From a virus, in the IMG/VR virus record IMGVR_UViG_3300032246_003079: 64,000 bases of DNA; one strand, 5' to 3'. The notes beneath the pieces were generated by a model. It was not told the DNA's origin and searched no databases. It was given only the letters and a program-made list of their open reading frames with translations. This document shows, one piece after another, positions 29,165 through 47,167 of this stretch. Each line of letters starts with the position of its first letter. Positions within the stretch are counted from its first letter, which is position 1. Made by a program: the position numbers and the translations under genes.

Positions 29165-29168
29165 TTTA

Positions 29169-29453
29169 TTATAACTTTTTTATTATGTTGTTTATTAGTA
29201 AAGTATTGAATGCGAATTTAAAAGGGATTGATAAATTTTTGGCGCTATGTATACCTAAATTTTCATCAAGTTCTTCTCTTTCGGATAATATAACATCTAC
29301 TAAATTTTTATATACTTCCCATTTTGAAACACTTATATGTGGTTCGTTTTCACCCTCAACTTCAGTTGATTCCAAAGTAGGGACGAACATTGCAATTTTA
29401 TTTTCTATTTCCTGTACGTCGATATAATATCTTTCACCTAAAAATTCTAACAT
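29169..29453 (-). CDS. Hypothetical protein
   Basis: Probable start MLEFLGERYY at 29453. Confidence 0.6.
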   Translation of the reverse strand: MLEFLGERYYIDVQEIENKIAMFVPTLESTEVEGENEPHISVSKWEVYKNLVDVILSEREELDENLGIHSAKNLSIPFKFAFNTLLINNIIKKL

Positions 29454-30812: not shown

Positions 30813-30855
30813 TTATTTATTAATTTTTTTTTATGGTTTTACCGTTATCGGGGCT

Positions 30856-31881: not shown

Positions 31882-31885
31882 TTTT

Positions 31886-32593
31886 TTATAAATTTAAAAT
31901 ATAATAATTTATATCACTCAATTTATCTTTAAATTTGTTATTAACAAATGTAGCATTTAATCCCCACGATAAACACTGAAATCCATTATTTTCCATATAG
32001 TTTTTTAACTCACTTGGATTTTCTTCGGAATAATACTGACCATTTGTTGATGTTTCAACGTCAACATATACAACTCTGTCTTTCATGTATTTGTCCATAC
32101 CTTTAATAATATTAAAATCAGAAGATTGTGCATCAATTTTAATTTGGTCAATAAATGGGATTTTTTCCCAAGGAAAACAATCAAAAAAATCATTAAGTGT
32201 GATTACAGGCACATCTATAATATCAACAATTTCAAATGATTTTGGTTCAAATAAACTTGATGTCCCTGAATTATTATTACCTGTGCAATAAAATTTTTCA
32301 GAATCTGAATTTTTATCCGATAATGCGCAATTTATAACAAAGAAAGTATTATCAATTCTTTCTTTTTCAATGTGGTGAGGCCAAAAATCTTGACCATCGT
32401 ATATTGTTTTTATATTGTAAATGTTAGGTTCAAATCCAAAAACTAATAACTCGGTTTCTCTTTGTAACCATAGTTCAGAATTAGGTGCACTTAAAGATGT
32501 GCCTATGTCAAGTTTTACTTTTTTGACCCATTCTGGAATTTTTATTTTTCCGTCGTTGCCCAAAATATTTTTTAAAATTTCATTTTTTTTCAT
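31886..32593 (-). CDS. FkbM-family methyltransferase
   Basis: LDIG, FEPN, GTSSL, IKIDAQ. Confidence 0.75.
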   Translation of the reverse strand: MKKNEILKNILGNDGKIKIPEWVKKVKLDIGTSLSAPNSELWLQRETELLVFGFEPNIYNIKTIYDGQDFWPHHIEKERIDNTFFVINCALSDKNSDSEKFYCTGNNNSGTSSLFEPKSFEIVDIIDVPVITLNDFFDCFPWEKIPFIDQIKIDAQSSDFNIIKGMDKYMKDRVVYVDVETSTNGQYYSEENPSELKNYMENNGFQCLSWGLNATFVNNKFKDKLSDINYYILNL

Positions 32594-33240
32594 ATTTTTT
32601 TAAATACATAATTTTCATTATCAATAATATTAATTAGAGAATACCCAATACTTTTCATAAATTCAACAGCATCACTAACTTGAAATCCTCTTTTTTCTAA
32701 TGCGTAATTTAATTCCACTAAAACAGTTGGGGACTGAGTTTCAAAAGTATTTTTTGAGCCTAATAAAACTTCATAATCATATGAGTCAACATCAATTTTA
32801 ATAAAATCAACCTTTAATTTATTTTTTTCTACAAAATTATCAATCGTTTCGAAGTCAAAATCTTTTTCCTCGATTGATTGCTGAGACCAAATTTTAAATA
32901 TTTTATCTTTTTTAATTCCTACTTTATCCGATAGAGGTTTTTTTATTAAAGTAATATTTTTACAGTCATTATGTAGACAATTTGCACTCAACATTTCGAA
33001 AGTTTCCGTAGGTTCAAATGAATAAACCTTACCATTAGAGCATATTTTTGAAAATAAAGTCGTATATAACCCTATTTGGGCCCCGCAATCTATAACTACA
33101 CTATCTTCTTTTAGATTTTCAATCACAAAAATTCTTGTGTTTGGTTCAGGATTAGAATACCAACCCAAATCACAATCGTAATAGTTAGGTAACTCAATAT
33201 CTATTTTATTTTGGTTTATATTGTAAGAATATTTTATCAT
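32590..33240 (-). CDS. FkbM-family methyltransferase
   Basis: VIDCGAQIG, SFEP, IKIDVD. Confidence 0.85.
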   Translation of the reverse strand: MIKYSYNINQNKIDIELPNYYDCDLGWYSNPEPNTRIFVIENLKEDSVVIDCGAQIGLYTTLFSKICSNGKVYSFEPTETFEMLSANCLHNDCKNITLIKKPLSDKVGIKKDKIFKIWSQQSIEEKDFDFETIDNFVEKNKLKVDFIKIDVDSYDYEVLLGSKNTFETQSPTVLVELNYALEKRGFQVSDAVEFMKSIGYSLINIIDNENYVFKKI

Positions 33241-34328
33241 TTTTTTTTATTTATTTCAGTAAGTGTTATTTCTTGAATTATTTGCTTTAATTCTATAGTT
33301 ATACCTGGCCAATCTGGAAAGTCTTTTTTAAATTTATTATAATTTGTGACGTAGTAAATATGGTCACCAATTCTATTTTTTTCATCGACAGAGTATTTAT
33401 CCCAAGTTATCCATTCGGGTATATTTTTTTTACATATTTCATTCACCATATCTATAGTTTCGATAATAGAAATTGAATTGTTAATTCCTCCACCCGCATT
33501 GTAAACTTCTCCTTTTTTTGGGTTCATATGATAAAACCAAAACATATTAACTAAATCAAAAGAATGAATATTATCTCTTACCTGTTTTCCTTTATAACCA
33601 TAAATTGTATAATGTTTGTTATTAACAATACATTTTATTAAATACGATAGAAATCCATGTAATTCTGCACCAGCATGGTCAGGACCCGTTAGACAACCTC
33701 CCCTAAAGCTAACAGTGTTCATATCAAAATACTTACCATATTCTTGAACCATTATATCTGCAGAAACTTTTGACGAACCAAAAACAGAGTGAAGACAATT
33801 ATCTATCGACAAACTTTCATCAAAAGTTTGTTCTAAAATGTCACCATCCAAAAAAAATCTAGTATTGTTTTCTTTATATTTTAATTTGTTAGGGTTGTCC
33901 CCATAAACTTTATTAGTTGAAGTAAAAATAAAAGTCGCATTATTACAATATAATCTAGTTAACTCTAAAATGTTTAGAGTACCTAGAGCGTTTACGGTAA
34001 AATCGGTTAGAGGTTCCTTTGAGGCCCAATCATGGGATGGTTGAGCTGCGGTATGGATTATTATTTCAATATCATTTTTGTGTAATTTAAAAATTTTTTC
34101 TAAACTATTATAATCTCTAATATCTATATTATTAAATTCAAAAAAATTTTTATAATCATTAATAAGTTTTTTAGTGGTGTTTTCTGTAGTATTTTCCTCA
34201 CCAAAAAAATAAGACCTCATGTGATTATCTATTCCAATCACAAAAAAACCCTTATCGATAAAAAATTTAACAGACTGAGAACCAATTAAGCCAGAGCATC
34301 CTGTAATTAATGTTATTTTTTTTTTCAT
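33237..34328 (-). CDS. rfbE: CDP-paratose 2-epimerase-like SDR
   Basis: TGCSGLIG, HTAAQPSHDW, STNKVYG, HGFLSYL, GKQVRDNIH. Confidence 0.8.
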   Translation of the reverse strand: MKKKITLITGCSGLIGSQSVKFFIDKGFFVIGIDNHMRSYFFGEENTTENTTKKLINDYKNFFEFNNIDIRDYNSLEKIFKLHKNDIEIIIHTAAQPSHDWASKEPLTDFTVNALGTLNILELTRLYCNNATFIFTSTNKVYGDNPNKLKYKENNTRFFLDGDILEQTFDESLSIDNCLHSVFGSSKVSADIMVQEYGKYFDMNTVSFRGGCLTGPDHAGAELHGFLSYLIKCIVNNKHYTIYGYKGKQVRDNIHSFDLVNMFWFYHMNPKKGEVYNAGGGINNSISIIETIDMVNEICKKNIPEWITWDKYSVDEKNRIGDHIYYVTNYNKFKKDFPDWPGITIELKQIIQEITLTEINKKK

Positions 34329-34930
34329 AGTTTTATATATAAGTAATCTATATTCACATTGCCGTATAAACTATATCCTTTTTTTAAAAAAAAGTCATTG
34401 AATGAGGATTCATGAAAATTATTTTCAACACAAATTACTTTTATTTGATATTTATCAAAATCAATATTATTTAATATTTGTAACTCAGAACCTTCAGTAT
34501 CTATTGATAAAAAATCAATTTCGGTTTTCTGAACCACAGAATCAAATTTTTTCGCGTCAATTTCAATTATCTCAGATTGACCTCCATATGTTTTTAATTC
34601 TGACATAATTCTATTATAATGTCTTGAATCGTAAGAGTCAAAAATTCCACTTAACATTTCCGTATAACCTGACAATGATAAAAATTTTATTTTACTATCT
34701 TCATTCCAAATTGCACAATTTACACATTCACAATTTCTATTTTTAATTAATTCTTTGTAAACATTAGGGTGAGGTTCTATACAAACACCATCCCAACCCA
34801 AATCTTCTAAAATTTTAGTGTTACTTATTGAAAACCCGTCATATGCTCCAATGTCCACAAAATAACCATTTTTTTTGTGTTTAAAAATTTCCAAAATTTT
34901 ATTTTCTAACTCTAAAATTCTTCCTCCCAT
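34325..34930 (-). CDS. FkbM-family methyltransferase
   Basis: FVDIGAYDG..SNT, GWDGVCIEP, LSIDTEGSE. Confidence 0.88.
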   Translation of the reverse strand: MGGRILELENKILEIFKHKKNGYFVDIGAYDGFSISNTKILEDLGWDGVCIEPHPNVYKELIKNRNCECVNCAIWNEDSKIKFLSLSGYTEMLSGIFDSYDSRHYNRIMSELKTYGGQSEIIEIDAKKFDSVVQKTEIDFLSIDTEGSELQILNNIDFDKYQIKVICVENNFHESSFNDFFLKKGYSLYGNVNIDYLYIKL

Positions 34931-34995
34931 TTTTTTTGATTTTAATTTTTATTTTTATTTTTAATTTAATTAGTAAAAAAAAATTGTAAATATGA

Positions 34996-35832
34996 TTAAT
35001 TTTCTTTCAACTCTAATATTTTTTCATTAACCCTATCATACCAAAATCCATACTTTTCTTTAGCTGTTCTGTAGTTTTCAATTACATATTTAATTCTATT
35101 TGTGTAATCTTTTTCCGATAAATTATCTAAAATAGATTCTAACTCATTTTCTGTTTCAAAAAAAATTATACCATCCTTGTTAAAAAAATTAAAAACACTC
35201 GGGGTTCCCCAATAAATCGGGATTGTGTATGACATGAAACAGTCAACAATTTTTTCACTTATATAGTTGTTATTTTTTGTATTCTCAATCGATATATGAA
35301 ACATGGAATCCTCAAAAAGTTTATATTTTAGACTTCCTTCTATTGACTCGGGAAATAATAAATTAAATTTTCTTTTTTTTCTTATTATGTCTTTTGTTTC
35401 ATGTCTTAGTTTATGACCTGGTAAAAAATTTTTATTACTCATAACATGACTTAACTTAAATTTTTTATTTGTAGAAAAAATATTTTCATAATCTTTTTTA
35501 AGTGAAATAGGTTTTTTTTCTTTGTCCGTAAGAATCCAACAAGACGCATAAAGAAATAATTCAGAATTTTCACAAAAATTTAAAACCTCCTCGAATGATG
35601 TTAATATTTTGTCAAAATAAATTTTATTTTGAATTATTTCATTTGAAATATTATTTAACTCTACGGGTTCCATTCCCTGTATCAAAAGTAATTTATCAAA
35701 TTTTTTTCTGTCGGATAAAAGTTGATTTTTAAAATATGATTTTGGGGGGTCAATTATTATTTTTAAATTAAAATTATCAAAACTTAAAAAGTTGTTTCCC
35801 GGACAACCAAATTGTGAATATGTTTCAGTCAT
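34996..35832 (-). CDS. GT10 alpha-1,3-fucosyltransferase-like
   Basis: FHISIEN....YISEKI.DC.....PIYWG. Confidence 0.85.
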   Translation of the reverse strand: MTETYSQFGCPGNNFLSFDNFNLKIIIDPPKSYFKNQLLSDRKKFDKLLLIQGMEPVELNNISNEIIQNKIYFDKILTSFEEVLNFCENSELFLYASCWILTDKEKKPISLKKDYENIFSTNKKFKLSHVMSNKNFLPGHKLRHETKDIIRKKRKFNLLFPESIEGSLKYKLFEDSMFHISIENTKNNNYISEKIVDCFMSYTIPIYWGTPSVFNFFNKDGIIFFETENELESILDNLSEKDYTNRIKYVIENYRTAKEKYGFWYDRVNEKILELKEN

Positions 35833-35835
35833 AAA

Positions 35836-36411
35836 TTAAATTTTTGGGTAAATATATATTAAACCGGAGTCAACACAATCAACGTTATTATTATAATGAA
35901 AATTATACCCTTCTTCATTATAAATCTTGTTTATAAAAGATTCTATGTATTTGAAATCTAAATTTTGTTCCCCGTATCTATCAAATCCAAATTTAGGTTT
36001 TCCACGTTCGTCAGGAACATAAAAATCATGTATTATAATAATAGGTTTTACCTTTTTTTCAATAAAAACTTTTAATTCGTCATGAATAGGCCAATAGTTG
36101 TGCCAATGAGCATCAAGAAAAACTAATAAGTTTTTTTCATTGTAATCAATTATTTTTTCTAAAATTTCAGGTGATGAACCTAATATAATTTCAACATTGT
36201 TAATTTTTTCTTCTGATATATTTTTTTTGGCAATTTCAAAATTTTCTTCAGAAATTTCAATAGAAAAAACATTTACCCCAAATTCGGATAATTTTTTTGT
36301 AGACCATCCATGGTATGTGCCAGTTTCAATAATTTTATTTATCTTGTGTGAATTTATAAGTTTTTTAAATTCATCATATACAAACTTATCTTCTAATGCT
36401 CCTTTAATCAT
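35836..36411 (-). CDS. Class I SAM-dependent methyltransferase
   Basis: IETGTYHG, FLDAH, IHDF. Confidence 0.8.
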   Translation of the reverse strand: MIKGALEDKFVYDEFKKLINSHKINKIIETGTYHGWSTKKLSEFGVNVFSIEISEENFEIAKKNISEEKINNVEIILGSSPEILEKIIDYNEKNLLVFLDAHWHNYWPIHDELKVFIEKKVKPIIIIHDFYVPDERGKPKFGFDRYGEQNLDFKYIESFINKIYNEEGYNFHYNNNVDCVDSGLIYIYPKI

Positions 36412-37166
36412 ATTTTTTTAAATACTGGTATTTCTACCATTTTGTGTTTATTTTTATTATTCAAAGATTTAAATATTTTGATGACTTCTTTATCTCTTTC
36501 AGAAAGACTATCTAAATTTTCTTCATTGTTATTTTCCAGGTAATACATGGCAAATTCTAATTCTTCGTAAGTTGCTCCGATTTGGTCTTCATCGGTTCTA
36601 TCATCATCCCACAATCCGTCAGTCGGTTTTGCCAAAACTATGTCTTCTATTATACCAATTTTTTTCGCTAAATCCCTAACTTCAGTTTTTGTTAAATCGG
36701 CAATAGGGGAAATATCTACCCCTCCATCCCCATATTTAGTAAAAAATCCGACACCAAAATCTTCTATTTTATTACCAGTTCCGACTACTATACCATTATT
36801 ATTACTTGATATATGGTACAATGTAGTCATTCTAAGTCTAGAACGAGAGTTTGCCAATGATAATTCAGTTGAACATTCAAATAAAGATTTAAAATTTTCA
36901 AAAATATTAGTTAAATCAAATTCCAAAAATTCAACATTATTAAAATTATTCATGAGCCAATTTATGTGATTATGAGCCCTATTTATTTGTTTTTTATTTT
37001 GGTGTATTGGAATGCTGACAACAAATGTTTTAATTTTTGTTTTGGCACAAAGGGTTGAAACAACTGCGGAGTCAATACCACCTGATACACCAACAACAAA
37101 ACATAAATTATTATTATCCGTACTATACCTTATAAGCCAATCAACTATTCTGTTTTCTAAATTCAT
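36408..37166 (-). CDS. nadE: NH3-dependent NAD+ synthetase
   Basis: SGGIDS, GTGNK.E, FFTKYGDG, PIADL.KT, PTDGLW, DEDQIG. Confidence 0.92.
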   Translation of the reverse strand: MNLENRIVDWLIRYSTDNNNLCFVVGVSGGIDSAVVSTLCAKTKIKTFVVSIPIHQNKKQINRAHNHINWLMNNFNNVEFLEFDLTNIFENFKSLFECSTELSLANSRSRLRMTTLYHISSNNNGIVVGTGNKIEDFGVGFFTKYGDGGVDISPIADLTKTEVRDLAKKIGIIEDIVLAKPTDGLWDDDRTDEDQIGATYEELEFAMYYLENNNEENLDSLSERDKEVIKIFKSLNNKNKHKMVEIPVFKKI

Positions 37167-38242
37167 ATAATATTTTTTAGTTGATTTATTACTTCTTCTC
37201 TGTTGTCGGATACTACAACATTATATCCCATATTTTTTAAACTTAAGGCAAATTTAAGTTGTTGGGATTCTTCGATTAAGGTACTTTCTTTTTTATATGT
37301 AACGTATGGTATTACAACTTTTTTAGTCATATCGGGATTGTTTTTAACAAAATTTTGAATTTGATATTCTAAATGTTTTTCATTCATTATGTCTGTAGAT
37401 TTTGAAATTACTGCGTCAATGCCAACTTCTTCCGCACATTTAGATAGTGCACGATTATCTCTTGGAAAACAAGGTCCCCCAAAACCAAATCCGGGTTTAA
37501 GGTATTTATTTCCGATTCTACTATCTGAACCAACAGCATTTAAAATAACATTAGGATTACAATTCATCCTCTCAGATATGTCACCTATCATGTTTGCAAA
37601 ACTTATTTTAGTTGTGAGAAAACAGTTAACTGACAATTTTGTTAATTCAGATTCTGTTCTTGACATGCGGTTTACTATTGGATTAGAATCACACATTACT
37701 TTATATATGTGCTCAATCGTATTTCCTGCCGTTTCGTCTGATTCACCTATTAACACACTATCACAATTCAATTGGTCCATAATAATACTACCTTGAGCAA
37801 TAAATTCTGGATTATAAGACACAAAATAATTTAAATCTGACAATCTTTTTTGGATTGTGTCACAGTATCCTGGAAAAGTTGTTGAGTTTATAATTAAATC
37901 TTTACGGGTATTTTGTTTTCCGATTTTAATTAACTCATCAACTATATTATCTATTTGAGTGTGGTCGTATTTCCATTCTGGTGTTGATGGAGTTTTTACA
38001 ACAACAAATATTATATCATTTTTTAACGCTAATTCAAGAGAAGTTGTAAAAATAATATTTTTGGAACTTTGTAAAAATTCATTAACGTATGGTTCTGTAC
38101 TTTTAAAACTTTTATTATTTAATGAACCTACATATGACTCAGAAACGTCAACCCCTATTATATTAAATCCTTTTCTTTCTAAATTTAACGATAAACATAA
38201 GCCTAATTTGCCAACACCTATAATTGATATATTATTTTTCAT
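37163..38242 (-). CDS. ugd: UDP-glucose/GDP-mannose 6-dehydrogenase (short C-domain)
   Basis: GVGKLG, YNPEF, KISFAN, DSRIG, GFGGPCFPRD. Confidence 0.9.
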   Translation of the reverse strand: MKNNISIIGVGKLGLCLSLNLERKGFNIIGVDVSESYVGSLNNKSFKSTEPYVNEFLQSSKNIIFTTSLELALKNDIIFVVVKTPSTPEWKYDHTQIDNIVDELIKIGKQNTRKDLIINSTTFPGYCDTIQKRLSDLNYFVSYNPEFIAQGSIIMDQLNCDSVLIGESDETAGNTIEHIYKVMCDSNPIVNRMSRTESELTKLSVNCFLTTKISFANMIGDISERMNCNPNVILNAVGSDSRIGNKYLKPGFGFGGPCFPRDNRALSKCAEEVGIDAVISKSTDIMNEKHLEYQIQNFVKNNPDMTKKVVIPYVTYKKESTLIEESQQLKFALSLKNMGYNVVVSDNREEVINQLKNII

Positions 38243-38251
38243 GTTATAAAA

Positions 38252-39013
38252 TTAAATTATATTACCATAATTGTCAACTAAAAAAGTTGACGGGTACCAA
38301 GAATGAAAAAAATTGTTACGTGAATAGACATATTTATTTTGACCATAAAGATGAGAAACCCAACTAAAAGAACTATTCGAGGTTACTAATATTTCACTTG
38401 TAATTAAATGATATAATGTTGTTACTATATCACCGTTCAAATGTATTTTTGCGTTAAATTTTTTTTCAAATATTTCAAAATCTTCATCCTTACCTTGAGA
38501 AAAAATATGAACATCTAAATTTTTTCCGTGAATACTATGTATGTTTGTAATTAAATTTATAAAATAATTTTTTTTATTTTCTGAATAATATTCCCTGTTA
38601 TAATCAAAACAAACATCTTGAGGATTAATATTTCTTATATGTACGGATAAAGTTTTTTTATTTTTATCAAAGTAGTTTATTCCTGTGTATTTTATTTTTT
38701 CAAATAACTCAGGAATATATTTTTGTTTTACAGAATTTTCAGACTCACCCCAATTTTTTAATAGATATGATGGTTCAATATAGTTTGTCCCAACTTCCCC
38801 TTCTGATGAGATATTAAAAAAATCATTTAGTTTTTTATTAAAAATTTCTTTTTCCTCTCCAACATATTGGTAATGTGATATGTTCTGTAAACCAGGGAAA
38901 AACATTTTCTTATTATTGACCCTACAATACGCATATAAGTGAAGTTGTGACTGTAAAATTGAACCTAAACCTTCTTCGTCATTACCGTCATATCTTGTGT
39001 AATAGTATTCCAT
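38252..39013 (-). CDS. GT11-like glycosyltransferase
   Basis: EGLG..LQ, SVHIR, SNSSFSW. Confidence 0.65.
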   Translation of the reverse strand: MEYYYTRYDGNDEEGLGSILQSQLHLYAYCRVNNKKMFFPGLQNISHYQYVGEEKEIFNKKLNDFFNISSEGEVGTNYIEPSYLLKNWGESENSVKQKYIPELFEKIKYTGINYFDKNKKTLSVHIRNINPQDVCFDYNREYYSENKKNYFINLITNIHSIHGKNLDVHIFSQGKDEDFEIFEKKFNAKIHLNGDIVTTLYHLITSEILVTSNSSFSWVSHLYGQNKYVYSRNNFFHSWYPSTFLVDNYGNII

Positions 39014-39016
39014 ATG

Positions 39017-39829
39017 TTATTCTAAAAAACCATTTTTATAAGACACATCAATAATTTTCCAATAATCTTCGTATATGTCTTTGTAATTTTTAGGACCTCT
39101 TGGTCCGAACCAAATTGAAGGTGACAATATTTTTTTATCTGGGTTTTTATTTAAGAACGACGACCACCAAGAAAAAGTTGAGTTTACTATAATGTTGTGA
39201 TTACAAAGAGACATTAACCACATTTCTTCGTAATCCTCAAGGTTTTCGATAAACGTAGAATTTTTTAATTTAATGTTATTTTTTACCCATTCTTTATCAT
39301 CTCCAAAAATAAAAACATGTTTGTATTCCCCAACAATATTTAACGATTTTTCAATATATTTTTCGTTTGCGATAGGGTGAATATCTAAATTAAAAAAACA
39401 ATCCCCCCTACGTGTGTGTATGGATAAAGTATTATCTTGTTTTAATTGTGGATATTTATCATACATCTTATTTATAAAATCTTCAGTCGGGGAAAAAATA
39501 TTTTTAATTTGTTCATCATATCCCAAAAAGTTTTTACTACTTTGAAAATACCCTTCAAAGACAGTGCTATTAGTTTTTGGATTTACTTCAGAATATTCCC
39601 AAGGACCTTCAACAACTTTTTCAAATCCATCAATAGACTCAACAAACTTTAAATTTCTAAAAACGTTATTAATATAGTTTGAAGCTTGTCTACCTTGCAT
39701 TGGTGTCCATGATTTAGGGACAAAAACTACTTCTCTATCGTGTTTTATTCCTTGTGCCAATGCGTGAGCCGCTTGAAATAATTGATTACCTAAACCACCC
39801 ATTAAATTACATGAGATTAAATTATTCAT
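39017..39829 (-). CDS. GT11 alpha-1,2-fucosyltransferase
   Basis: GGLGNQLFQ, GYFQS, HTRRGD, NSTFSWW. Confidence 0.92.
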   Translation of the reverse strand: MNNLISCNLMGGLGNQLFQAAHALAQGIKHDREVVFVPKSWTPMQGRQASNYINNVFRNLKFVESIDGFEKVVEGPWEYSEVNPKTNSTVFEGYFQSSKNFLGYDEQIKNIFSPTEDFINKMYDKYPQLKQDNTLSIHTRRGDCFFNLDIHPIANEKYIEKSLNIVGEYKHVFIFGDDKEWVKNNIKLKNSTFIENLEDYEEMWLMSLCNHNIIVNSTFSWWSSFLNKNPDKKILSPSIWFGPRGPKNYKDIYEDYWKIIDVSYKNGFLE

Positions 39830-40563
39830 TTAACTAACTTATTTAATTTTTGTTTATTTCTAACCATGTTTGATACTTTTATTTGTTCAAGATTGGAGCC
39901 ACTAGCGCTACCTTGTTTGTGGTCATTATATGGGTTTTCTTCATTATAAACTAATAGTATATCGGGTATAAATTCATAATGATTTTCACCTGACATTTCA
40001 ACCATAGGGAATGAGTACGCAACATCAGCCCCTGATTTAAAATAATTTTTATTTTCATCTAAAAACATTTCTTCATCTATACTTCTCCATAAATGAGCTT
40101 TCCAAGTTCTTAAATGGGAAAAAACAAATAAGTCACGTCTTATTGTGTTAGGATTCGCCTTTGCCGAAAACCCCATCCTTCCATCAGAATATATAAAACT
40201 ACCGTTAGTAATCCAAAGATTTTTGTTTTTAGAATATCTATCAAAAACTTTTTGTAAAACTAATTCATTATAAAACCAATCATCACCATCCAACTCAACA
40301 ATAATATCTTCATCATCAATTAATGATTCATCCATCAATAAGTCATCTAAATTTTTTAATTTGAACTTTTTTTCAGTGTTTTTGATATAAACAAATCTTT
40401 CATCACCTTCTATTAATTTTTCTATGATTTGATTTGTATTGTCATTAGACATATCATCAATTAAATACATTTTAAAGTCCCGATAAGTTTGAGATTTAAC
40501 CGAATTAATACATTTTTCAATATAGTTTTCAACATTCCAAAAACAACTTACAACTTTAATCAT
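39826..40563 (-). CDS. Glycosyltransferase family 2
   Basis: CINSV..QT, IDDMSND, LDGDDW. Confidence 0.9.
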   Translation of the reverse strand: MIKVVSCFWNVENYIEKCINSVKSQTYRDFKMYLIDDMSNDNTNQIIEKLIEGDERFVYIKNTEKKFKLKNLDDLLMDESLIDDEDIIVELDGDDWFYNELVLQKVFDRYSKNKNLWITNGSFIYSDGRMGFSAKANPNTIRRDLFVFSHLRTWKAHLWRSIDEEMFLDENKNYFKSGADVAYSFPMVEMSGENHYEFIPDILLVYNEENPYNDHKQGSASGSNLEQIKVSNMVRNKQKLNKLVK

Positions 40564-42199
40564 TTAAAACTTTAATATATTCTTCTTTTATTTTTTTCGC
40601 CACTTCAATTGAGTCAAATTTACTAACATCTGTCGGTGGTGTATGTAATTTTTTATCTAAAATATAACCACTACTTTCAACATTGTAAATCCACCCAGGT
40701 TTATTACACATCCAACCTTCAATAGTTGTTCTTCCCAAAAGAATACCTGCAGTTTCAGAACAGTTTTTAACATACTGTTCAACTTTACTTGTCGCGTTAA
40801 AATGTTTTACGTGTGGATTTTTTAATAAATCATCCAAGTAATTTGATTTATTTTCACCAACTAACCATAATTCTTTATTAATTTCAGAGGAGTATGTAAC
40901 TAAATCTTTTATTGTATTTTCTCTTAAATAATCAATTGTCCCAACAAACAAAACGTAATTATCATTTTTAATATTATTTGAATTGAATCTTTTTGTGTCG
41001 ATTGGATTATAAATTACTTCAGTATTATTTTTATCGATATTAAATTTTTCGACAATATGGTTTTGTATCTCAGGACGAATGCAAATATATTTTTTAATTG
41101 AATCGTTAATAATTGGATTTTCTAATTCTATGACTTCAGAATGTATTGTTGATATTTTTGAAATATTAGGATACATCTGACACATTTGATTTGAAACGGG
41201 AGTGTGTTGAGTATGGATTATATCATAATTAACATCACCAATTTTGTACATTACATTTGGTTGTGTTGGTTGAAATCCTTGTGGTGTGTTAAATCCCCAC
41301 TTTCCATCTCCCATTTTGTAACCAGGAGCATCTTGAAATGAAACTACTTTGATTCCTTGTTGTTTTGCTAATTGAGATAAGGGTCCATTAATGTCTGAAA
41401 GTACCGTAACATCACAATTTAACTTTTTTAATCCTCTTGCTAATTCATAAACATACATTTCTGAACCTGTAAAAGTTTTAAAAAATAAACAAGACAATAA
41501 AACTTTTAAAGGTGAATCGATTGTAAGATTTCGTTTGATTTTAACGGGTAAAACATCTTTGAATTTTTCTGCAAACTCTTCTCTATTTTTTTCCCATTGT
41601 TCATTAGTCATTCCGATTGATTTATGCGTGACTCTAACATCATACATAACACCTATTTTAACATCTTCTAAATAATTTCTAAAAGAAAAATCTACATCGT
41701 AAAAGTGAAACCCTTTAACTTCTTCGTTAAAGTTGTGTTTAATATTTTTTTTATTAATTGCCATAAATAATCCATCTACCAACAATACGTCATCTAACTG
41801 ATTACCCTTACTTGTTGAATATTTTGACTCCCATTTTTTTCCTTCATGTTCATGATTAACAATTCCTTTAAGTTTTGAAAAATCTTCCCACCATTTACCA
41901 GAAGAAGGTAATGATGTTGAGCCCGCAACTCCAAGAATGCCGTAGTCAGAATTTCTTTTAAAATAATTCAAAACCTTTGATGCCCAATTCTTACTGTCAA
42001 AATAAATGTCGTGATGCATAAATACAACTATATCATATTTTGATTCTTTTAAACCTTTATTATAAATCTCGGTTAAAGAATATTCTCCGTTATTTTTATA
42101 TCCTAAAAATTCAATTTTATTATGTAAACCACTATTTTTAGTAGTTTCTTTTTTAAAATTTTCTAAATCGTATTGAGATGAGCAAACTACACTTATCAT
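40556..42199 (-). CDS. Bifunctional glycosyltransferase (GT2-like + GT4-like)
   Basis: YNKG..FMHHDI..DGLF..FHFYD N-half; TGSEMY..IYNPID..GRT.IE C-half. Confidence 0.85.
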   Translation of the reverse strand: MISVVCSSQYDLENFKKETTKNSGLHNKIEFLGYKNNGEYSLTEIYNKGLKESKYDIVVFMHHDIYFDSKNWASKVLNYFKRNSDYGILGVAGSTSLPSSGKWWEDFSKLKGIVNHEHEGKKWESKYSTSKGNQLDDVLLVDGLFMAINKKNIKHNFNEEVKGFHFYDVDFSFRNYLEDVKIGVMYDVRVTHKSIGMTNEQWEKNREEFAEKFKDVLPVKIKRNLTIDSPLKVLLSCLFFKTFTGSEMYVYELARGLKKLNCDVTVLSDINGPLSQLAKQQGIKVVSFQDAPGYKMGDGKWGFNTPQGFQPTQPNVMYKIGDVNYDIIHTQHTPVSNQMCQMYPNISKISTIHSEVIELENPIINDSIKKYICIRPEIQNHIVEKFNIDKNNTEVIYNPIDTKRFNSNNIKNDNYVLFVGTIDYLRENTIKDLVTYSSEINKELWLVGENKSNYLDDLLKNPHVKHFNATSKVEQYVKNCSETAGILLGRTTIEGWMCNKPGWIYNVESSGYILDKKLHTPPTDVSKFDSIEVAKKIKEEYIKVLND

Positions 42200-43029
42200 A
42201 TTTTATTTTGTTTTTTTAACTGTCTCACTTTATTATAAACAGAACTTAATTTCTTACCTAATTGTTTAGAACACTCAACAGAGGTTATCTTACCATAATT
42301 TTCAATTAAGAAATTTTCATCTTTTTTTGACCAAAATTTAATTGATTTTTCATTTATGTAATTAACTATGTCAATGTATTTTTTATATTTTCTACTAAAC
42401 CCAATGTTATCATAATCACAATATATGTAATCACATAATATTTTAACATCGTTTTTTTTATTAACTCTAAAATGTGAATACCCACCCATTTTAACAACCC
42501 AATTATTAATTATAAAATTAATGTTTAATTTGTTGCACAAATCAATCATAAAAGACCAATCTTGATTATATGGACCAGCAAAAACAACATCTATTCCATA
42601 TTTTTTACCTAATTTAATACATCCGTCACCATCTAAATACCCGCGAAACCAATGTTTTTTTAAGTCTTCAGGTATTGAGTGTAAAATTTTATTAGGGGAT
42701 GAATTTGATTTATTAGTATAATCGTTTTTTTTTAATATTTCAAATAACCCCCAAGTTGACGTTGATATTTTTTTTTGGTTTTTAACTTGTTTACCTTTAT
42801 GTGTTTTAATTATAGGTTTACTTATATTCCAATGACCCGTCTTTAAAAAAATATTAATAACGTCGTTTATGTCCGATTCGCTACAATTTATAGAAGTTAA
42901 CTTATGTTCTTCCCTAATATGACCATCTGCCCATAAAAGACCTAAGATATATGACGATTCTTTATTAAATTTATTTTCAAATAATGAAACATCCACCTTT
43001 TTTTTATTTTTATTTTCACCTTTATTCAT
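42196..43029 (-). mobile_element. Free-standing LAGLIDADG homing endonuclease with C-terminal HTH
   Basis: YILGLLWADG and FRGYLDGDG motifs; WS..D..FL C-terminal helix bundle. Confidence 0.88.
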
Positions 43030-43094
43030 CTTGTTATATTTTTACATAATGTTATTTAAATATAAATATATGATAAAACAAAAAAGGATTTAAT

Positions 43095-43697
43095 TTAAAA
43101 CAAATTCGTACTTCCAAATCCATTATCATTTCGGTCTTTTGAACCTAAATTTGAAATTTGTGTTAAATTAACCCATTTACCACTAACAACAGGACAAAGA
43201 ACCGCTTGGGCGATTTTTTGACCTTTTTCAATTTTAACTTTTTCTTGAGTGGTGTTAAATAAAATAACTTGTATTTCACCTAAGTACCCACTATCAACCG
43301 TGCCGGGTGAATTTAAAACAAATAATCCTTGATTTAATGCTAAACCACTTTTAGACCTTACTTGTATTTCATAACCATCGGGAATATCAAATTTCAAACC
43401 TGTGGGTATTAAAACTCTTGAATTTGGAAAAACGCATTTTTCTTCTGACGCCCTTAAATCAAACCCTGAATCACTTTTATATGCGTATTCAGGGTTTTGG
43501 TTCTCACTATTATTTACAAACTTTAAATCAACTGCAGATGTAAATTGGCCTTCAAAATGTTCATTAATTTCATCAACATTAAGTCCCATGGATTTTAACA
43601 TACTTTCAGGATTAGTCATGTCAACATCACCAAATTGAGATTGAAGCTCCTTTAAAGCTTTCATGCTATTTTTTAAATCTTTTATATTTTCAAACAT
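43095..43697 (-). CDS. dut: Trimeric dUTPase with N-terminal extension
   Basis: SGFDL, RSKSGL, GTVDSGY.GEI, KIAQ, RNDNGFGST. Confidence 0.93.
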   Translation of the reverse strand: MFENIKDLKNSMKALKELQSQFGDVDMTNPESMLKSMGLNVDEINEHFEGQFTSAVDLKFVNNSENQNPEYAYKSDSGFDLRASEEKCVFPNSRVLIPTGLKFDIPDGYEIQVRSKSGLALNQGLFVLNSPGTVDSGYLGEIQVILFNTTQEKVKIEKGQKIAQAVLCPVVSGKWVNLTQISNLGSKDRNDNGFGSTNLF

Positions 43698-44425
43698 TAT
43701 TTTAAACTTTTTAATTTTTTTATTGATTCAATCAAAACATCAACATCTTTTTCACAGTATTTTGCAATTTCATCAAGTCTACTCTGATTCCAATATGCCT
43801 GATGAACCATACCTCCATTTATTTCACCATCTTTTGGTGTTGGAATATCTAAACAAGAACACATTAAATCTAAAGAACCAATTGAACTATACGAACCATA
43901 TTGCCAAATTTCTTTGGTGTCAATCGCTTTCACTTCCCATGGTTTGGTGTCGTATGACGGAAGTATTTTTGATGGCATAATATTGTTAATAATCATACGT
44001 TTTGCCAACATAGGAATATCAAAGTTTTTTAAATTATGTCCACACAAATAAAAATCTAATTTGTGACAACGGTCTAATAAATTTCTAACTTCCAATAGCA
44101 AATCCTCTTCGTTGTCATTTTTAAAAGTTTGTTTTTTTACATCACCGTTTTCTAAAACAAATGCCATTGATACACAAACAATTTTAGCAAACTCTGGAAC
44201 AAGTGCCGCTCTTGAAGAATAAACATCATTCATTTTTTGAAGTTCTTCTTCAAGACCATTTGTCTCAACGTCATCTTCAGGAAATCGTTTTAAAAACCAA
44301 TCAAAGTATTTAACAAATTGTTCAGCAATTTTAGGGTGATTTTCTTGACAAGTCCGCCAATCCTTACATATACCAACAGTTTCAATGTCGATAAATAAAA
44401 TTTTGTTAATAGGTATGTTTATCAT
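43697..44425 (-). CDS. PolB-type 3'-5' exonuclease (stand-alone)
   Basis: IDIET, GHNLKNFD, YCEKDV (Exo I/II/III). Confidence 0.88.
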   Translation of the reverse strand: MINIPINKILFIDIETVGICKDWRTCQENHPKIAEQFVKYFDWFLKRFPEDDVETNGLEEELQKMNDVYSSRAALVPEFAKIVCVSMAFVLENGDVKKQTFKNDNEEDLLLEVRNLLDRCHKLDFYLCGHNLKNFDIPMLAKRMIINNIMPSKILPSYDTKPWEVKAIDTKEIWQYGSYSSIGSLDLMCSCLDIPTPKDGEINGGMVHQAYWNQSRLDEIAKYCEKDVDVLIESIKKLKSLK

Positions 44426-45682
44426 TTTATTAAAGATTTATAAAGTTCCGCTCTATTTTTTGTGACCACATTCAAATCATATGTGTCTTTCACCGTTTCA
44501 TACAATCGTTGTCCCAAGTCATAAGCAAAGTTAGGATTATCAATTAATTTTTTCATGTTTTTAGCCCAATCACTATGATTTTTTACTTCATCTACTAAAA
44601 GTGCGTTTCCGTCAGAGAATTGACCATTTTTTAATGCGTGTTTTAAATCAATAGTGTAGGGACCAACATTTGAAGCAATAATTGCTTTTTTGTAAAAACC
44701 AGCTTCAATAACTTTTAATTGCGACTTAACTCGGTTAAAAATATGATTTACAATCGGTGATAATGAAACGTCAAATAATCTATAATTTGAAGCATAACTT
44801 GTAACAGGTTTTGTCCAAACTCGATTGTAAAAAGGTTCAGACTCCATAATATATTCTGAATCCTCAAATTTTTTCAAATATTCAATATGTTGGGGGGAAA
44901 CCATTTTATAATTGTCAGTAAAAATTTCTTCATAACGAGCCCATACGGTTTCTTCTGGTCGTATTGGTCTTTGTTTTTGTTCTCCCGTTTCTTTATTAAT
45001 TTCAGTAACACTTCCTCTTGTATCAAAACCACATAAATACAATGAAAATTTGTCATGACTATCTTTTAATTTATTCGTAACGCCGCTTAACAATTTTAAA
45101 TCGTGTAAGTGAGAAGAACCACCCAACCATCCAAAACGAAGTTTATCTGACGGTTTTGTTTCATGGTTAAATTGAGCTTCTTTTGGATTAATTGCATTTG
45201 GAAGAACGTATACGTTTTTATTAATTTTAGATATTTCTGAAGCAAATAAAGATGTTGTTGTTGTTACATGTGCCGCCACTTTTAGATTTGCAACTATCTT
45301 TTGATTTATTTTGTTCTGTATGATTAGTTGATGAATTGGGTGCTCTTTAGTTGGCAACCAATAATCATCTAAATCCATAATTGTAATTACACCAATAGAA
45401 TTTAATGTTTGAATTAATTTATTGGATTGGTCAAAATCTTGACCAATTGACCTATGGAAATGTACAATGTCGTATTGTTTCCAATAGTTATAATCATTAA
45501 TTTTTGGGTCATAATCTATATCTATGTGAAATTCATCTGAGTGATTATTTTGTAACATTACGTGGGGGTCTACAGACCTAAATTTTCCTTTAAATTCAGC
45601 CAACTCCAGTACGGTCGCTAGGGACGCATAGAACCCTAATTTTTTTGCGAACGTCTGGAGTTGGATTGCTCTCTTGATTCAT
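44422..45682 (-). CDS. GT-B glycosyltransferase encoded in two frames: 45682-45599 (28 aa) and 45585-44422, separated by a 13-nt coding gap
   Basis: Segment 1 MNQ..KIRVLCVPSDRTGVG* joins segment 2 KFRSVDPH...; body has MDLDDYW, GWLGGSSH..DL, FNRVKSQLKVIEAG. Confidence 0.75.
45600..45664 (-). other. GC-rich 22-bp mRNA stem-loop ending at the putative take-off codon
   Basis: CCAACTCCAG/CTGGAGTTGG, ACG/CGT, TCGC/GCGA, TAGGG/CCCTA; 33 of 65 nt are G+C. Confidence 0.8.
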
Positions 45683-46037
45683 GTTTTTTTATTAAGTTAT
45701 TTATTATTTGTGGGTTTGATTTCAATTCAGACTCCCACACCACTTCAAAAAAATAACCATTACTTTTTATTAAGTCAATTTTATTATTATCATATTCCCA
45801 TAATTCTTGTGCGGTTTTTTTCTTTACTTGGTGATAATAACTTGCGTCGTATTTTTTTGGGTTACAATGCCAATAATCTCCATTATATTCAATAATTAAA
45901 TTTAATTTAGGTATATATATGTCACATATTTTTGTGTCAATTTTTAATGAATGTTTTACTTGGTAACCCATATTTTTTATTTCTTCCAATATTTCTTTCT
46001 CTTTTTTAGACCTATTAATTGATTTTATTTTTCCCAT
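45636..46037 (-). mobile_element. Free-standing Vsr/DUF559-like (EDxHD) endonuclease
   Basis: SK.E, D.YIP, IIEYNGDYWH, D..K, GY....VWE motifs. Confidence 0.8.
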
Positions 46038-46076
46038 AATATGATTAATAGTCCCGACCTATCAAAAGGTAATAAA

Positions 46077-46105
46077 ATAAAAAATCCACCTAAAATAGGT
46101 GGATT
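46077..46105 (-). terminator. Rho-independent terminator upstream of the endonuclease
   Basis: Minus strand AATCCACCTA-TTT-TAGGTGGATT plus T tract. Confidence 0.8.
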
Positions 46106-46777: not shown

Positions 46778-47167
46778 TTATTCATTATCAAATTTAGCGT
46801 TAACTAAAACTCTAATCATTGATTTATCACCTTGTGGATTATAGTTAGGTCTAACTTCATCAAAGTTATCAAAGGAGGGTTTATATGTAAAGATTTTATC
46901 TACTCTAAATAATCTCCAACCTGGTAAAACATTACCTTTATTTTGTGCACTGTAGGAAGCACCTTCTCTTTCCCACGCTCTTAAAACCATATTATCTCTT
47001 TTTGAAAATCCTAAACACACAGGCTCTATTGTTCTATATCCTTTACCACCATTATCATTACCATCATAGTAAATTGTTACCACGTTTCTTTTTTTAATAG
47101 AATCCGTCATGTCAGAAATCGCAGCAATTTCTGTAATCAATTCACTAAGATTGTTGACTAATTTCAT
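46778..47167 (-). CDS. WYL-domain protein
   Basis: I.Y...RTIEP..LG...LRAW...GWRLFRVDKI. Confidence 0.75.
   Translation of the reverse strand: MKLVNNLSELITEIAAISDMTDSIKKRNVVTIYYDGNDNGGKGYRTIEPVCLGFSKRDNMVLRAWEREGASYSAQNKGNVLPGWRLFRVDKIFTYKPSFDNFDEVRPNYNPQGDKSMIRVLVNAKFDNE

What the first reader, a model, noticed from the sequence alone, without database searches (positions are those of the whole stretch)
45580..45682. Candidate programmed ribosomal bypass (hop) in a phage glycosyltransferase
Seen: on the minus strand, ATG 45682 opens MNQESNPTPDVRKKIRVLCVPSDRTGVG and stops at TGA 45598-45596. The GT body continues in the +1 frame as G-KFRSVDPH. The junction reads GTT GGC TGA ATTTAAA GGA AAA TTT: a Gly codon (GGC), a stop codon, 7 nt, then a second Gly codon (GGA) displaced by 13 nt. 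Removing those 13 nt gives ...KIRVLCVPSDRTGVGKFRSVDPH..., a typical GT-B first beta-strand plus glycine loop, and a 415-aa protein. The track's TTG-started ORF lacks this strand. Known: T4 gene 60 bypassing uses a Gly take-off codon, an adjacent stop, a Gly landing codon and mRNA structure. Inference: this is an independent, short-gap bypass element. Caveat: the take-off and landing codons are synonymous, not identical.
Basis: partly seen in the sequence, partly recalled or inferred. Interest (0 to 1): 0.95.

Follow-up and report, generated by a model that had tools for sequence, protein, structure and literature searches.

The report
Ribosome-hop gap in phage glycosyltransferase
A lake phage's sugar-transferase gene is broken by 13 untranslatable bases that arrived with a selfish nuclease gene, and 68 natural variants of the same break indicate that ribosomes most likely hop over it, a short-range counterpart of the phage T4 gene 60 bypass.

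Summary
Observation confirmed. On the minus strand a 28-codon ORF (ATG 45682 to GGC 45601-45599) stops at TGA 45598-45596. The GT-B glycosyltransferase body continues in the +1 frame from AAA 45585 to 44422.

- **The 13 bases are extra and real.** 57 distinct uninterrupted relatives read SDxTGVG|KFRSVDPH without a gap. The 13 bases occur in several IMG/VR samples and in contigs of three further studies.
- **An allelic series exists.** 68 distinct interrupted alleles carry 13 versions of Gly(GGY)-stop-(0-9 G-free bases)-Gly(GGN) at this codon. Inserts are 6, 9, 11, 12, 13 or 15 nt, so all three frames occur, and one version has two in-frame stops.
- **The gene stays functional.** Every complete body is intact. 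The 5' exon evolves as protein (pN/pS 0.25). The gene outlives the decaying endonuclease beside it.
- **A hairpin travels with the gap.** Only interrupted alleles have an N-terminal extension that forms a ~65-nt hairpin ending on the take-off codon, with covariation.

Best reading (about 0.7): a programmed short ribosomal hop carried by a Vsr-like homing-endonuclease cassette. It is analogous to T4 gene 60/MobA and to the phiHau3 10-nt gaps. There is no experimental proof. This scan has reported the same cassette before on other phage genomes.

The parts
46079..46104 (-). Terminator-like hairpin plus T-run of the upstream gene. It marks the left border of the cassette.
   Evidence: Read. The same hairpin lies directly before the GT start in the cassette-free relative L009 (alignment).
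45636..46037 (-). 133-aa free-standing Vsr/DUF559-like endonuclease (homing endonuclease). Its last 47 nt overlap the new GT start.
   Evidence: Pfam MTES_1575 and DUF559 match below their cut-offs. PHROG 3339 'homing endonuclease' matches at E 2.7e-14. It is absent from the near-identical phage L009. It is decayed in L005, L006, L031, L059, L287 and L299.
45599..45682 (-). GT 5' exon of 28 codons. An N-terminal extension (MNQESNPTPDVRK) is followed by beta-strand 1 and the glycine loop (KIRVLCVPSDRTGVG).
   Evidence: Across 68 interrupted alleles the residues I, L, S, D, G and V are invariant despite up to 6 synonymous codons, and pN/pS is 0.25.
45600..45664 (-). About 65-nt RNA hairpin. The outer 10-bp stem pairs CCAACUCCAG (45664-45655) with CUGGAGUUGG (45609-45600). 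Its 3' end is the second base of the take-off codon.
   Evidence: RNAfold z = -3.1. It is present in all 13 junction versions and absent from uninterrupted alleles. Covariation is shown.
45599..45601 (-). Take-off codon GGC (Gly28).
   Evidence: The take-off is GGY in 67 of 68 interrupted alleles and AGT in one. Part of this set was found with a GGY pattern.
45596..45598 (-). Stop codon TGA directly after the take-off codon.
   Evidence: A TGA or TAA sits here in all 68 interrupted alleles.
45589..45595 (-). 7-nt spacer ATTTAAA, free of G. It creates a second zero-frame stop (TAA).
   Evidence: L006 has ATTAAAA. Other lineages have spacers of 0, 3, 5, 6 or 9 nt, none containing G.
45586..45588 (-). 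Landing codon GGA. It is the first GGN triplet after the take-off codon.
   Evidence: A GGN codon directly 5' of AAA(Lys) is present in all 13 versions.
44422..45585 (-). GT body: 387 codons plus the stop, starting KFRSVDPH.
   Evidence: A 96%-identical intact homologue (L009) gives an AF2 model with pLDDT 85. That model matches GT-B/GT4 enzymes at Foldseek E about 1e-12.

Best explanation
A mobile cassette has inserted at the 5' end of a conserved GT-B glycosyltransferase gene. It consists of a small Vsr-like homing endonuclease, a replacement start with an N-terminal extension, and a short stop-containing insert.

The insert splits the invariant GVG|KFRS motif at the N-cap of helix alpha-1. 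By analogy with T4 MobA, it probably protects the phage's own DNA from its endonuclease.

The gene stays functional because ribosomes hop. With peptidyl-tRNA-Gly on GGC in the P site and UGA in the A site, the tRNA unpairs. The mRNA then slides 13 nt, and the tRNA re-pairs with the next GGN triplet (GGA). Decoding resumes at AAA and gives the ancestral 415-aa protein.

The ~65-nt hairpin's 3' strand ends on the take-off codon. It most likely drives or rectifies the slide by re-zipping behind the ribosome.

Shown here: the anatomy, the allelic series, the selection signals and the hairpin covariation. Inferred: the hop itself, the role of the hairpin and the self-immunity function.
For: 1. **Exact excision restores the family motif.** 57 distinct uninterrupted alleles, and a 35%-identical megaphage homologue (SDVDGIGYYRNFMPH), show no length variation at this site.
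2. **Allelic series.** 68 distinct interrupted alleles fall into 13 versions, with inserts of 6, 9, 11, 12, 13 and 15 nt covering frames 0, +1 and +2. Each starts with TGA or TAA right after GGY (AGT once) and ends with GGN right before AAA. No spacer contains G. The 15-nt version and the window's zero frame each hold two stops. Only a hop serves all of these.
3. **Function is kept.**
   - All complete bodies are 377-422 codons long with no extra stop.
   - WIN versus L006 (both 13-nt alleles) gives dS 0.585 and dN/dS 0.056.
   - The 5' exon has pN/pS 0.25. Leu uses 6 codons and Ser uses both the AGY and TCN families.
   - KFRSVDPH is kept although no start codon lies at the landing site.
4. 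**The endonuclease decays while the GT stays intact** in L005, L006, L031, L059, L287 and L299.
5. **Hairpin.** The mean probability that the 3' arm pairs with an upstream partner is 0.57 in 67 interrupted alleles and 0.05 in 57 uninterrupted ones. At one pair the types are AU:4, UG:4 and GC:1, reached by 1 of 500 shuffles. Two further pairs change on both sides. The third base of the -2 Gly codon (A, G or C) tracks its partner (U, C or G).
6. **Cassette behaviour.** The near-identical phage L009 lacks the endonuclease, the extension and the gap together. The interrupted state changes 20 times on the GT-body tree.
7. **Precedents.** T4 MobA/gene 60 (10.1101/2022.08.31.505936) and the phiHau3 10-nt gaps (PMC10732093).
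Against: - No protein, reporter or ribosome-profiling data exist. All support is comparative.
- In the window's allele the take-off GGC and landing GGA are not read by one standard tRNA-Gly(GCC). The wobble position would be a G:A mismatch. The same holds for 9 of 68 alleles, and one allele takes off from AGT.
- Much of the synonymous divergence in the bodies may predate arrival of the cassette, because the cassette moves between alleles (20 state changes). dN/dS therefore overstates selection after insertion.
- Alleles are related, so counts and the Mann-Whitney test are not independent samples. The two pattern scans fixed GTT GGY, which biases those positions.
- The small take-off hairpin predicted in the window (45579-45598) is not kept in L006.
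- Host and efficiency are unknown.
I could not find which part.
Confidence: 0.72

Rival explanations
1. Each allele uses a different conventional recoding event. The 13-nt allele would use a +1 frameshift at GGC UGA A, giving TGVG-EFKG-KFRS. The 6-, 9-, 12- and 15-nt alleles would use stop-codon readthrough. The 11-nt alleles would use a -1 or +2 shift.
For: A stop in the A site and a G-rich GGAG or GGGG block 2 nt upstream of the P-site codon recall the prfB +1 site. UGA is the leakiest stop codon. A loop might tolerate a few extra residues.
Against: This needs three mechanisms at one site, with a switch of mechanism at every change of gap length. tRNA-Gly cannot re-pair in the +1 frame (GCU). 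The 15-nt version has two in-frame stops, and many alleles use TAA. The insert would fall between invariant G17 and K18 at the N-cap of helix 1. No homologue shows a length change there. The conserved landing GGN and the G-free spacers are left unexplained.
Confidence: 0.1
2. The gene is simply inactivated. The selfish endonuclease cassette breaks the GT, and the phages live without it or are recent invasions that have not yet decayed.
For: Selfish elements can spread at a cost. The cassette is gained and lost often. Gene callers annotate the gene only as 378- or 393-aa truncated proteins.
Against: None of the complete interrupted bodies has a second lesion, while the neighbouring endonuclease is deleted, frameshifted or reduced to remnants in at least six lineages. 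The 5' exon and the codons right after the gap remain under protein-level constraint. The stop, both Gly codons and the hairpin are conserved across lineages whose endonucleases are only about 50% identical.
Confidence: 0.07
3. The protein is split. A 28-aa peptide (beta-strand 1 plus the glycine loop) and a separately initiated body (TTG 45603, or reinitiation after the stop) assemble in trans, like the split Topo2L or NrdA made by MobA/MobE insertions.
For: The window has an in-frame TTG overlapping the junction. Split genes with added tails are known for Mob elements (10.1101/2022.08.31.505936, section 12).
Against: The 6-, 9-, 11-, 12- and 15-nt versions have no start codon in the body frame before the Met of PHVM. 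Reinitiation there would drop the invariant KFRSVDPH, yet those codons are conserved. A 28-residue strand-plus-loop is an unlikely stable subunit.
Confidence: 0.05
4. The extra bases are removed from the RNA by a tiny intron, editing or polymerase slippage before translation.
For: None directly. It would also give the exact junction.
Against: No known bacterial or phage mechanism excises 6-15 nt. The gaps share no splice-like ends. One metatranscriptome contig (X20 record 12, 45563-45724, no differences) still holds the 13 nt. It has only 23 nt on one side and may derive from DNA, so this is weak.
Confidence: 0.03

Closest known systems
Phage T4 gene 60 50-nt translational bypass carried by the MobA homing-endonuclease element (Huang 1988; Bonocora 2011; Manning & Atkins, bioRxiv 10.1101/2022.08.31.505936)
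   Same: An endonuclease sits just upstream. A new N-terminal extension is added. A non-coding insert lies a few dozen codons into a highly conserved motif. Take-off is from a Gly codon followed by a stop, with landing on a Gly codon. The gap is devoid of premature landing triplets. The endonuclease decays while the gap persists. Presence or absence varies among close relatives.
   Different: The host gene differs (GT-B glycosyltransferase, not Topo2L). The gap is 6-15 nt rather than about 50 nt. There is no SD-like element in the gap. The endonuclease is Vsr/DUF559-like rather than MobA. The 5' hairpin is conserved with covariation here, whereas the T4 5' stem-loop is not conserved between clades (section 19 of that preprint). 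No nascent-peptide signal has been shown. No experiments exist.
Streptomyces phage phiHau3 terminase, 10-nt inserts with UUA-triggered bypassing (Antonov et al. 2023, PMC10732093)
   Same: It is a natural phage gene with a short gap of about 10 nt. A slow-to-decode A-site codon triggers the event. A 5' stem-loop is proposed as stimulator. Insertion of the extra residues would disrupt the protein.
   Different: The trigger there is a rare sense codon (UUA) with a proposed regulatory role, not a stop. No endonuclease cassette is involved. No allelic series of gap lengths is known.
Low-level stop-hops in E. coli constructs (Weiss et al. 1987, listed as ref. 47 in PMC10732093; bovine placental lactogen two-codon hop, Kane 1992, ref. 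50)
   Same: Peptidyl-tRNA leaves a codon next to a stop or hungry codon and re-pairs with a synonymous codon 6 nt or a few more downstream. This is exactly the layout of the 6-nt alleles (GGC TGA GGT, GGT TAA GGT).
   Different: Those are rare events (on my recollection about 1% or less) in artificial or overexpressed genes. Here the layout is conserved in a natural gene, with a dedicated hairpin.
Mitochondrial 'byps' of Magnusiomyces capitatus (Lang 2014; cited in PMC10732093)
   Same: Mobile inserts are bypassed between matched, sometimes wobble-matched, codons.
   Different: Those inserts are 27-55 nt, GC-rich, present in many copies per genome and mitochondrial. No endonuclease gene is linked to them.
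prfB (RF2) programmed +1 frameshift
   Same: An in-frame UGA sits in the A site, with a G-rich block shortly upstream of the P-site codon.
   Different: The P-site tRNA cannot re-pair in the +1 frame here. A +1 product would add four residues to an invariant motif. This mechanism cannot serve the 6-, 9-, 11-, 12- or 15-nt alleles.

Membership tests
Programmed translational bypassing (gene 60 type, as a mechanism) | Two ORFs of one protein are separated by a non-coding gap. Exact removal of the gap restores the protein. | tested here: met
   Removing 13 nt gives TGVG|KFRS, as in 57 uninterrupted alleles.
Programmed translational bypassing (gene 60 type, as a mechanism) | A stop or slow codon lies directly 3' of the take-off codon. 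| tested here: met
   TGA or TAA is present in 68 of 68 interrupted alleles.
Programmed translational bypassing (gene 60 type, as a mechanism) | Take-off and landing codons can be read by the same tRNA. | tested here: inconclusive
   GGY to GGY in 59 of 68 alleles. The window (GGC to GGA) and 8 others mismatch at the wobble position, and one allele goes from AGT to GGC. The host tRNA set is unknown and the window holds no tRNA gene.
Programmed translational bypassing (gene 60 type, as a mechanism) | The gap works independently of reading frame and lacks premature landing triplets. | tested here: met
   Inserts of 6, 9, 11, 12, 13 and 15 nt occur. No spacer contains G.
Programmed translational bypassing (gene 60 type, as a mechanism) | A take-off stem-loop within the gap and an SD-like element 5' of the landing site. 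| tested here: not met
   The window's 7-bp AU hairpin is lost in L006. The gaps are too short and G-free, so no SD-like element is present.
Programmed translational bypassing (gene 60 type, as a mechanism) | A nascent-peptide signal is required for take-off. | not testable with these tools
   The N-terminal extension always accompanies the gap. Its conservation is confounded with the 5' arm of the hairpin.
Programmed translational bypassing (gene 60 type, as a mechanism) | A single polypeptide spanning the gap has been demonstrated. | not testable with these tools
   This needs a reporter assay or mass spectrometry.
Free-standing homing endonuclease (Vsr/DUF559-like) | Sequence match to the nuclease family. 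| tested here: inconclusive
   Pfam MTES_1575 scores 24.9 bits (cut-off 38.2) and DUF559 18.4 (cut-off 20.6). PHROG 3339 'homing endonuclease' matches at E 2.7e-14 and phrog_559 at 9.4e-11.
Free-standing homing endonuclease (Vsr/DUF559-like) | Presence or absence varies at one site among near-identical genomes, with decay after fixation. | tested here: met
   L009 lacks it although its flanks are 94-100% identical. Decayed copies are seen. The state changes 20 times on the GT tree.
Free-standing homing endonuclease (Vsr/DUF559-like) | It cleaves the cassette-free allele, and the gap protects the carrier. | not testable with these tools
   Inferred from T4 MobA (10.1101/2022.08.31.505936, section 12). 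Some relatives carry an endonuclease homologue without a gap (L007, L054, L240-L248).
GT-B fold glycosyltransferase (GT4-like) | Two Rossmann-like domains, with similarity to solved GT-B enzymes. | tested here: met
   The AF2 model of L009 has pLDDT 85.4 and pTM 0.83. Foldseek matches PglA, GlgM, MshA, BshA and PimA at E 1e-12 to 1e-9 with probability 1.0. Pfam Glycos_transf_1 matches only below its cut-off. PHROG 7162 'glycosyltransferase' matches at E 1e-46.
prfB-type +1 frameshift | The P-site tRNA can re-pair in the +1 frame, and the +1 product is the conserved protein. | tested here: not met
   The shift from GGC to GCU leaves a central mismatch. The +1 product would insert EFKG into an invariant motif. 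Alleles in the other frames exist.

The most novel reading that the evidence does not exclude
This is a natural, mobile, minimal bypass module. A stop codon flanked by two glycine codons is combined with a 5' hairpin that re-zips behind the stalled ribosome and pushes it 6-15 nt forward. It would need no take-off stem-loop or SD element in the gap. Nature has supplied a graded series of gap lengths in all three frames. A homing endonuclease would use the module to immunise its own genome without harming an essential motif.
Probability: 0.5. Interest if true: 0.9.

Novelty: new variant of a known kind. Interest (0 to 1): 0.85.

Why it matters
Translational bypassing has very few natural cases. 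Gene 60 and its homologues all sit in one topoisomerase gene. This locus would be a second, unrelated endonuclease-plus-bypass cassette. Its gaps are short enough to link gene 60 bypassing with the low-level stop-hops seen in reporters.

Dozens of natural variants are available for study, differing in gap length, frame, stop codon, landing codon and hairpin sequence. That makes the minimal requirements for hopping directly testable. It also lets one test whether mRNA refolding behind the ribosome drives forward sliding.

In practice, gene callers mis-annotate the gene as truncated 378- or 393-aa proteins in public databases. The family is very large, with at least 7,988 clusters in one capped search.

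Tried and rejected
- blastn of the locus against GenBank phages found nothing. The window's own assembly is not held.
- The first variable-gap pattern was too loose.
- RNAalifold on the MAFFT alignment of all classes did not return the 5' hairpin, because the 5' arms were out of register. It proposed a weak downstream pairing instead. I therefore counted pairs on two sub-alignments and used per-sequence partition functions.
- Helix length counted with G-U pairs does not separate interrupted from uninterrupted alleles, because the G/U-rich arm finds many weak partners.
- RNA evidence is weak. One metatranscriptome contig (X20) holds the 13 nt but has only 23 nt on one side and may derive from DNA. 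It does not show transcription or the absence of RNA excision.
- The window has no tRNA gene.
- A scan of the window for other same-residue-stop-same-residue breaks found only noise in non-coding frames.
- Transcriptional slippage at the A7 run (45646-45640) would lose the conserved IRVLCVPSD strand, so I rejected it by inspection.
- I could not find what failed in the earlier check that one of this scan's notes mentions.
Full report
**Observation.** The minus strand reads ATG (45682) ... ACT GGA GTT GGC TGA ATTTAAA GGA AAA TTT AGG. The first ORF is 28 codons and stops at TGA 45598-45596. The glycosyltransferase body runs in the +1 frame for 387 codons from AAA 45585 to the stop at 44422.

**The 13 bases are extra.** A protein-guided scan of viral contigs returned 80 relatives. 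In 57 distinct alleles at 64-96% identity the gene reads MxKIKVLVLPSDxTGVG|KFRSVDPH with no gap. A 35%-identical homologue in a 735-kb megaphage has the same spacing, SDVDGIGYYRNFMPH.

**The 13 bases are real DNA.** Identical junctions occur in IMG/VR contigs from several other samples. Ungapped contigs from three unrelated studies span the site. One metatranscriptome contig also holds the 13 nt. It has only 23 nt on one side and could be DNA carry-over, so I give it no weight.

**The gene.**
- Pfam sees only sub-threshold Glycos_transf_1, while PHROG 7162 'glycosyltransferase' matches at E 1e-46.
- An AlphaFold model of the intact 96%-identical homologue L009 has pLDDT 85.4 and pTM 0.83. It is a GT-B fold, and its best matches are PglA, GlgM, MshA, BshA and PimA.
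- In the model, strand 1 is residues 4-9, the loop is residues 10-17 and helix 1 starts at K18. The break therefore lies exactly between invariant G17 and invariant K18 at the helix N-cap.
- The gene heads a long minus-strand array holding PolB-like exonuclease, dUTPase, GT2, GT4, GT10 and GT11 genes, a UDP-glucose dehydrogenase, an epimerase and FkbM methyltransferases.
- The family is very large, with 7,988 hits in a capped search. Public gene calls list the interrupted form as truncated 378- or 393-aa proteins.

**A mobile cassette.**
- Directly upstream lies a 133-aa Vsr/DUF559-like endonuclease (45636-46037). PHROG 'homing endonuclease' matches at E 2.7e-14, while the Pfam matches are below cut-off. 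Its 3' end overlaps the new GT start.
- The near-identical phage L009 has flanks 94-100% identical. It lacks the endonuclease, the N-terminal extension and the 13 nt together. There the terminator of the upstream gene is followed directly by the ordinary GT start.
- All interrupted loci in the unbiased sets, and the eight pattern-scan loci I checked, have the endonuclease or a remnant of it.
- On a tree of 103 GT bodies the interrupted state changes 20 times, against a shuffled mean of 34 and minimum of 27. L009 is nested among the 13-nt alleles. The cassette is therefore gained or lost often.
- Endonuclease homologues at 50-61% identity also sit upstream of uninterrupted GT genes without extension or gap (L007, L054, L240-L248, L264). 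Linkage of endonuclease and gap is thus strong but not absolute.

**The allelic series.** I combined the protein-guided loci, the endonuclease-guided loci and two pattern scans. This gave 68 distinct interrupted alleles in 13 junction versions.

| Take-off | Stop | Spacer | Landing | Insert (nt) | Distinct alleles |
|---|---|---|---|---|---|
| GGC | TGA | none | GGT | 6 | 36 |
| GGT | TAA | none | GGT | 6 | 8 |
| GGT | TGA | none | GGT | 6 | 4 |
| GGT | TAA | none | GGA | 6 | 2 |
| GGT | TGA | none | GGA | 6 | 1 |
| AGT | TAA | none | GGC | 6 | 1 |
| GGT | TAA | CCA | GGC | 9 | 2 |
| GGT | TAA | ATCAA | GGT | 11 | 3 |
| GGT | TAA | CCAAA | GGT | 11 | 3 |
| GGT | TAA | CAAAAC | GGT | 12 | 2 |
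| GGC | TGA | ATTTAAA | GGA | 13 (the window) | 4 |
| GGC | TGA | ATTAAAA | GGA | 13 | 1 |
| GGC | TGA | AAAAATTAA | GGA | 15 | 1 |

- All three frames are represented.
- The 15-nt version has two in-frame stops.
- No spacer contains G, so the landing codon is always the first GGN after take-off.
- Readthrough could serve only frame 0, a +1 shift only the 13-nt alleles, and a -1 or +2 shift only the 11-nt alleles. A hop from Gly codon to Gly codon serves all of them.
- The two pattern scans fixed GTT GGY TRR, so the take-off codon identity is unbiased only in the 21 alleles found by protein similarity. Those too are all NGY.

**Is the interrupted gene alive?**
- Every body that the contig allows to be read is complete, at 377-422 codons.
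- The endonuclease next door has lost its start by a 47-nt deletion in L005. It is frameshifted in L031. It is reduced to remnants without an ORF in L006, L059, L287 and L299. This serves as an internal clock, showing that the GT is kept while neutral DNA beside it decays.
- Two 13-nt alleles, WIN and L006, differ at dS 0.585 with dN/dS 0.056. Within 21 codons upstream of the gap they show four synonymous changes and one conservative change.
- Across the 68 alleles, the 15 codons before the stop have pN/pS 0.25. Leu -10 is spelled six ways, and Ser -6 uses both AGY and TCN.
- The codons just after the gap (KFRSVDPH) stay conserved, although most versions have no start codon in frame there. This argues against a separately initiated body.
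- Caveat: because the cassette moves between alleles, part of the body divergence predates its arrival.

**The hairpin.**
- RNAfold places a ~65-nt hairpin at 45664-45600. Its outer 10-bp stem pairs CCAACUCCAG with CUGGAGUUGG and ends on the second base of the take-off codon (z = -3.1).
- The 5' arm lies in the N-terminal extension, which explains why extension and gap always travel together.
- All 13 versions fold the same way. The mean probability that the 11-nt 3' arm pairs with a distant upstream partner is 0.57 (median 0.69) in 67 interrupted alleles. It is 0.05 (median 0.006) in 57 uninterrupted ones. These are not independent samples.
- Covariation:
  - In nine GGC-TGA-GGT alleles the closing pair is A-U four times, U-G four times and G-C once. 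98.6% of cells are paired, and 1 of 500 shuffles reaches this.
  - In the other group two pairs change on both sides, UA/CG and GC/AU.
  - The third base of the -2 glycine codon is A, G or C, with partner U, C or G in different lineages.
- In many GGC-TGA-GGT alleles the same G-rich arm can instead pair downstream with UCAGUUGACCCCC, enclosing the stop and landing codons. I did not pursue this alternative fold.
- By analogy with current gene 60 models, in which mRNA pairing behind the ribosome drives forward movement (10.1101/2024.12.09.627546), I infer the following. When the ribosome stalls on the stop, the 3' arm is held inside it. Zipping of the stem then pulls the message through by up to about a dozen bases. 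This is inference.

**Comparison with known systems.**
- The closest is T4 gene 60 with MobA. It has an endonuclease, an N-terminal extension, a Gly take-off followed by a stop, a matched landing, a gap that blocks self-cleavage, and endonuclease decay with retention of the gap (10.1101/2022.08.31.505936, sections 12, 16).
- Differences: the host gene, the gap length (6-15 nt against about 50 nt), the absence of an SD element and of a conserved take-off stem-loop in the gap, and the endonuclease type. The 5' hairpin is conserved here, whereas the T4 5' stem-loop is not conserved between clades (section 19).
- Short natural gaps have a precedent in the 10-nt UUA inserts of the phiHau3 terminase, which have experimental support (PMC10732093). 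Six-base stop-hops are known from reporter constructs. The kind is therefore known and this is a new variant.
- Three full-text searches found no paper on a bypass in a glycosyltransferase.
- This scan's own notes describe the same cassette on other phage genomes several times. Their mention of further gap lengths prompted my tighter pattern scan, and I verified 6, 9, 11, 12, 13 and 15 nt myself. One note warns that part of a like claim fell on checking. I could not learn which part, so I avoid claims of priority or of efficiency.

**Verdict.** My confidence in a programmed hop is about 0.72. The rest is divided among mixed conventional recoding, a dead gene, a split protein and RNA-level removal.

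Noticed in passing
window 42196-43029 (-): A 277-aa LAGLIDADG-type endonuclease gene lies between the dUTPase gene and a GT2/GT4 fusion gene. Four near-identical relatives (L005, L006, L009, L045) align there at only about 55%, meaning no homology. It appears to be a second mobile endonuclease, specific to this phage.
   Followed up: partly
window 46009-46055; L001 (= G001): The closest held relative has a 47-nt deletion that removes the endonuclease start codon. The same 47-nt skip appears as a contig joint in run X5.
   Followed up: partly
window about 28100-45682 (-): A long same-strand array of glycan genes: GT2, a GT2+GT4 fusion, GT10- and GT11-like transferases, a UDP-glucose dehydrogenase, an epimerase/dehydratase, three FkbM methyltransferases, an O-methyltransferase and an NAD synthase. 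A dUTPase and a PolB-like exonuclease lie among them. The interrupted GT is its first gene.
   Followed up: partly
L309, L065, L211 and other GGC-TGA-GGT alleles, about -8 to +30 around the take-off codon: The G-rich arm GGGGGUUGGCUGA can pair downstream with UCAGUUGACCCCC (13 bp with three G-U pairs). This encloses the stop and landing codons and competes with the upstream hairpin, so it may act as a switch or as a take-off stem-loop.
   Followed up: partly
L227-L235, L238-L239, L251-L283: 43 of 80 homologues of the small endonuclease lie next to genes other than this GT. I did not check whether those genes carry similar stop-containing inserts.
   Followed up: no
L007/L224-L226, L054/L223, L240-L248, L258, L264: Endonuclease homologues (50-61% identity) sit upstream of uninterrupted GT genes that have no extension or hairpin. 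Two of these lineages share an unusual VLVTPSD (GTCACCCCT) variant of strand 1, which might be another way of escaping cleavage.
   Followed up: no
P0005, P0007, P0009, P0011-P0019 (public protein clusters): Public gene calls list the interrupted gene as 378-aa (start at the Met of PHVM) or 393-aa (TTG start) proteins. Some are named 'glycosyltransferase involved in cell wall biosynthesis'.
   Followed up: partly
P0044 (443 aa): One public homologue repeats a stretch of about 39 residues around NHIFNRVKSQLKVIEAGF. This is either an internal duplication or an assembly artefact.
   Followed up: no
window 46778-47167 (-): A stand-alone 129-aa WYL-domain protein without an HTH lies just upstream of the cassette region.
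   Followed up: no
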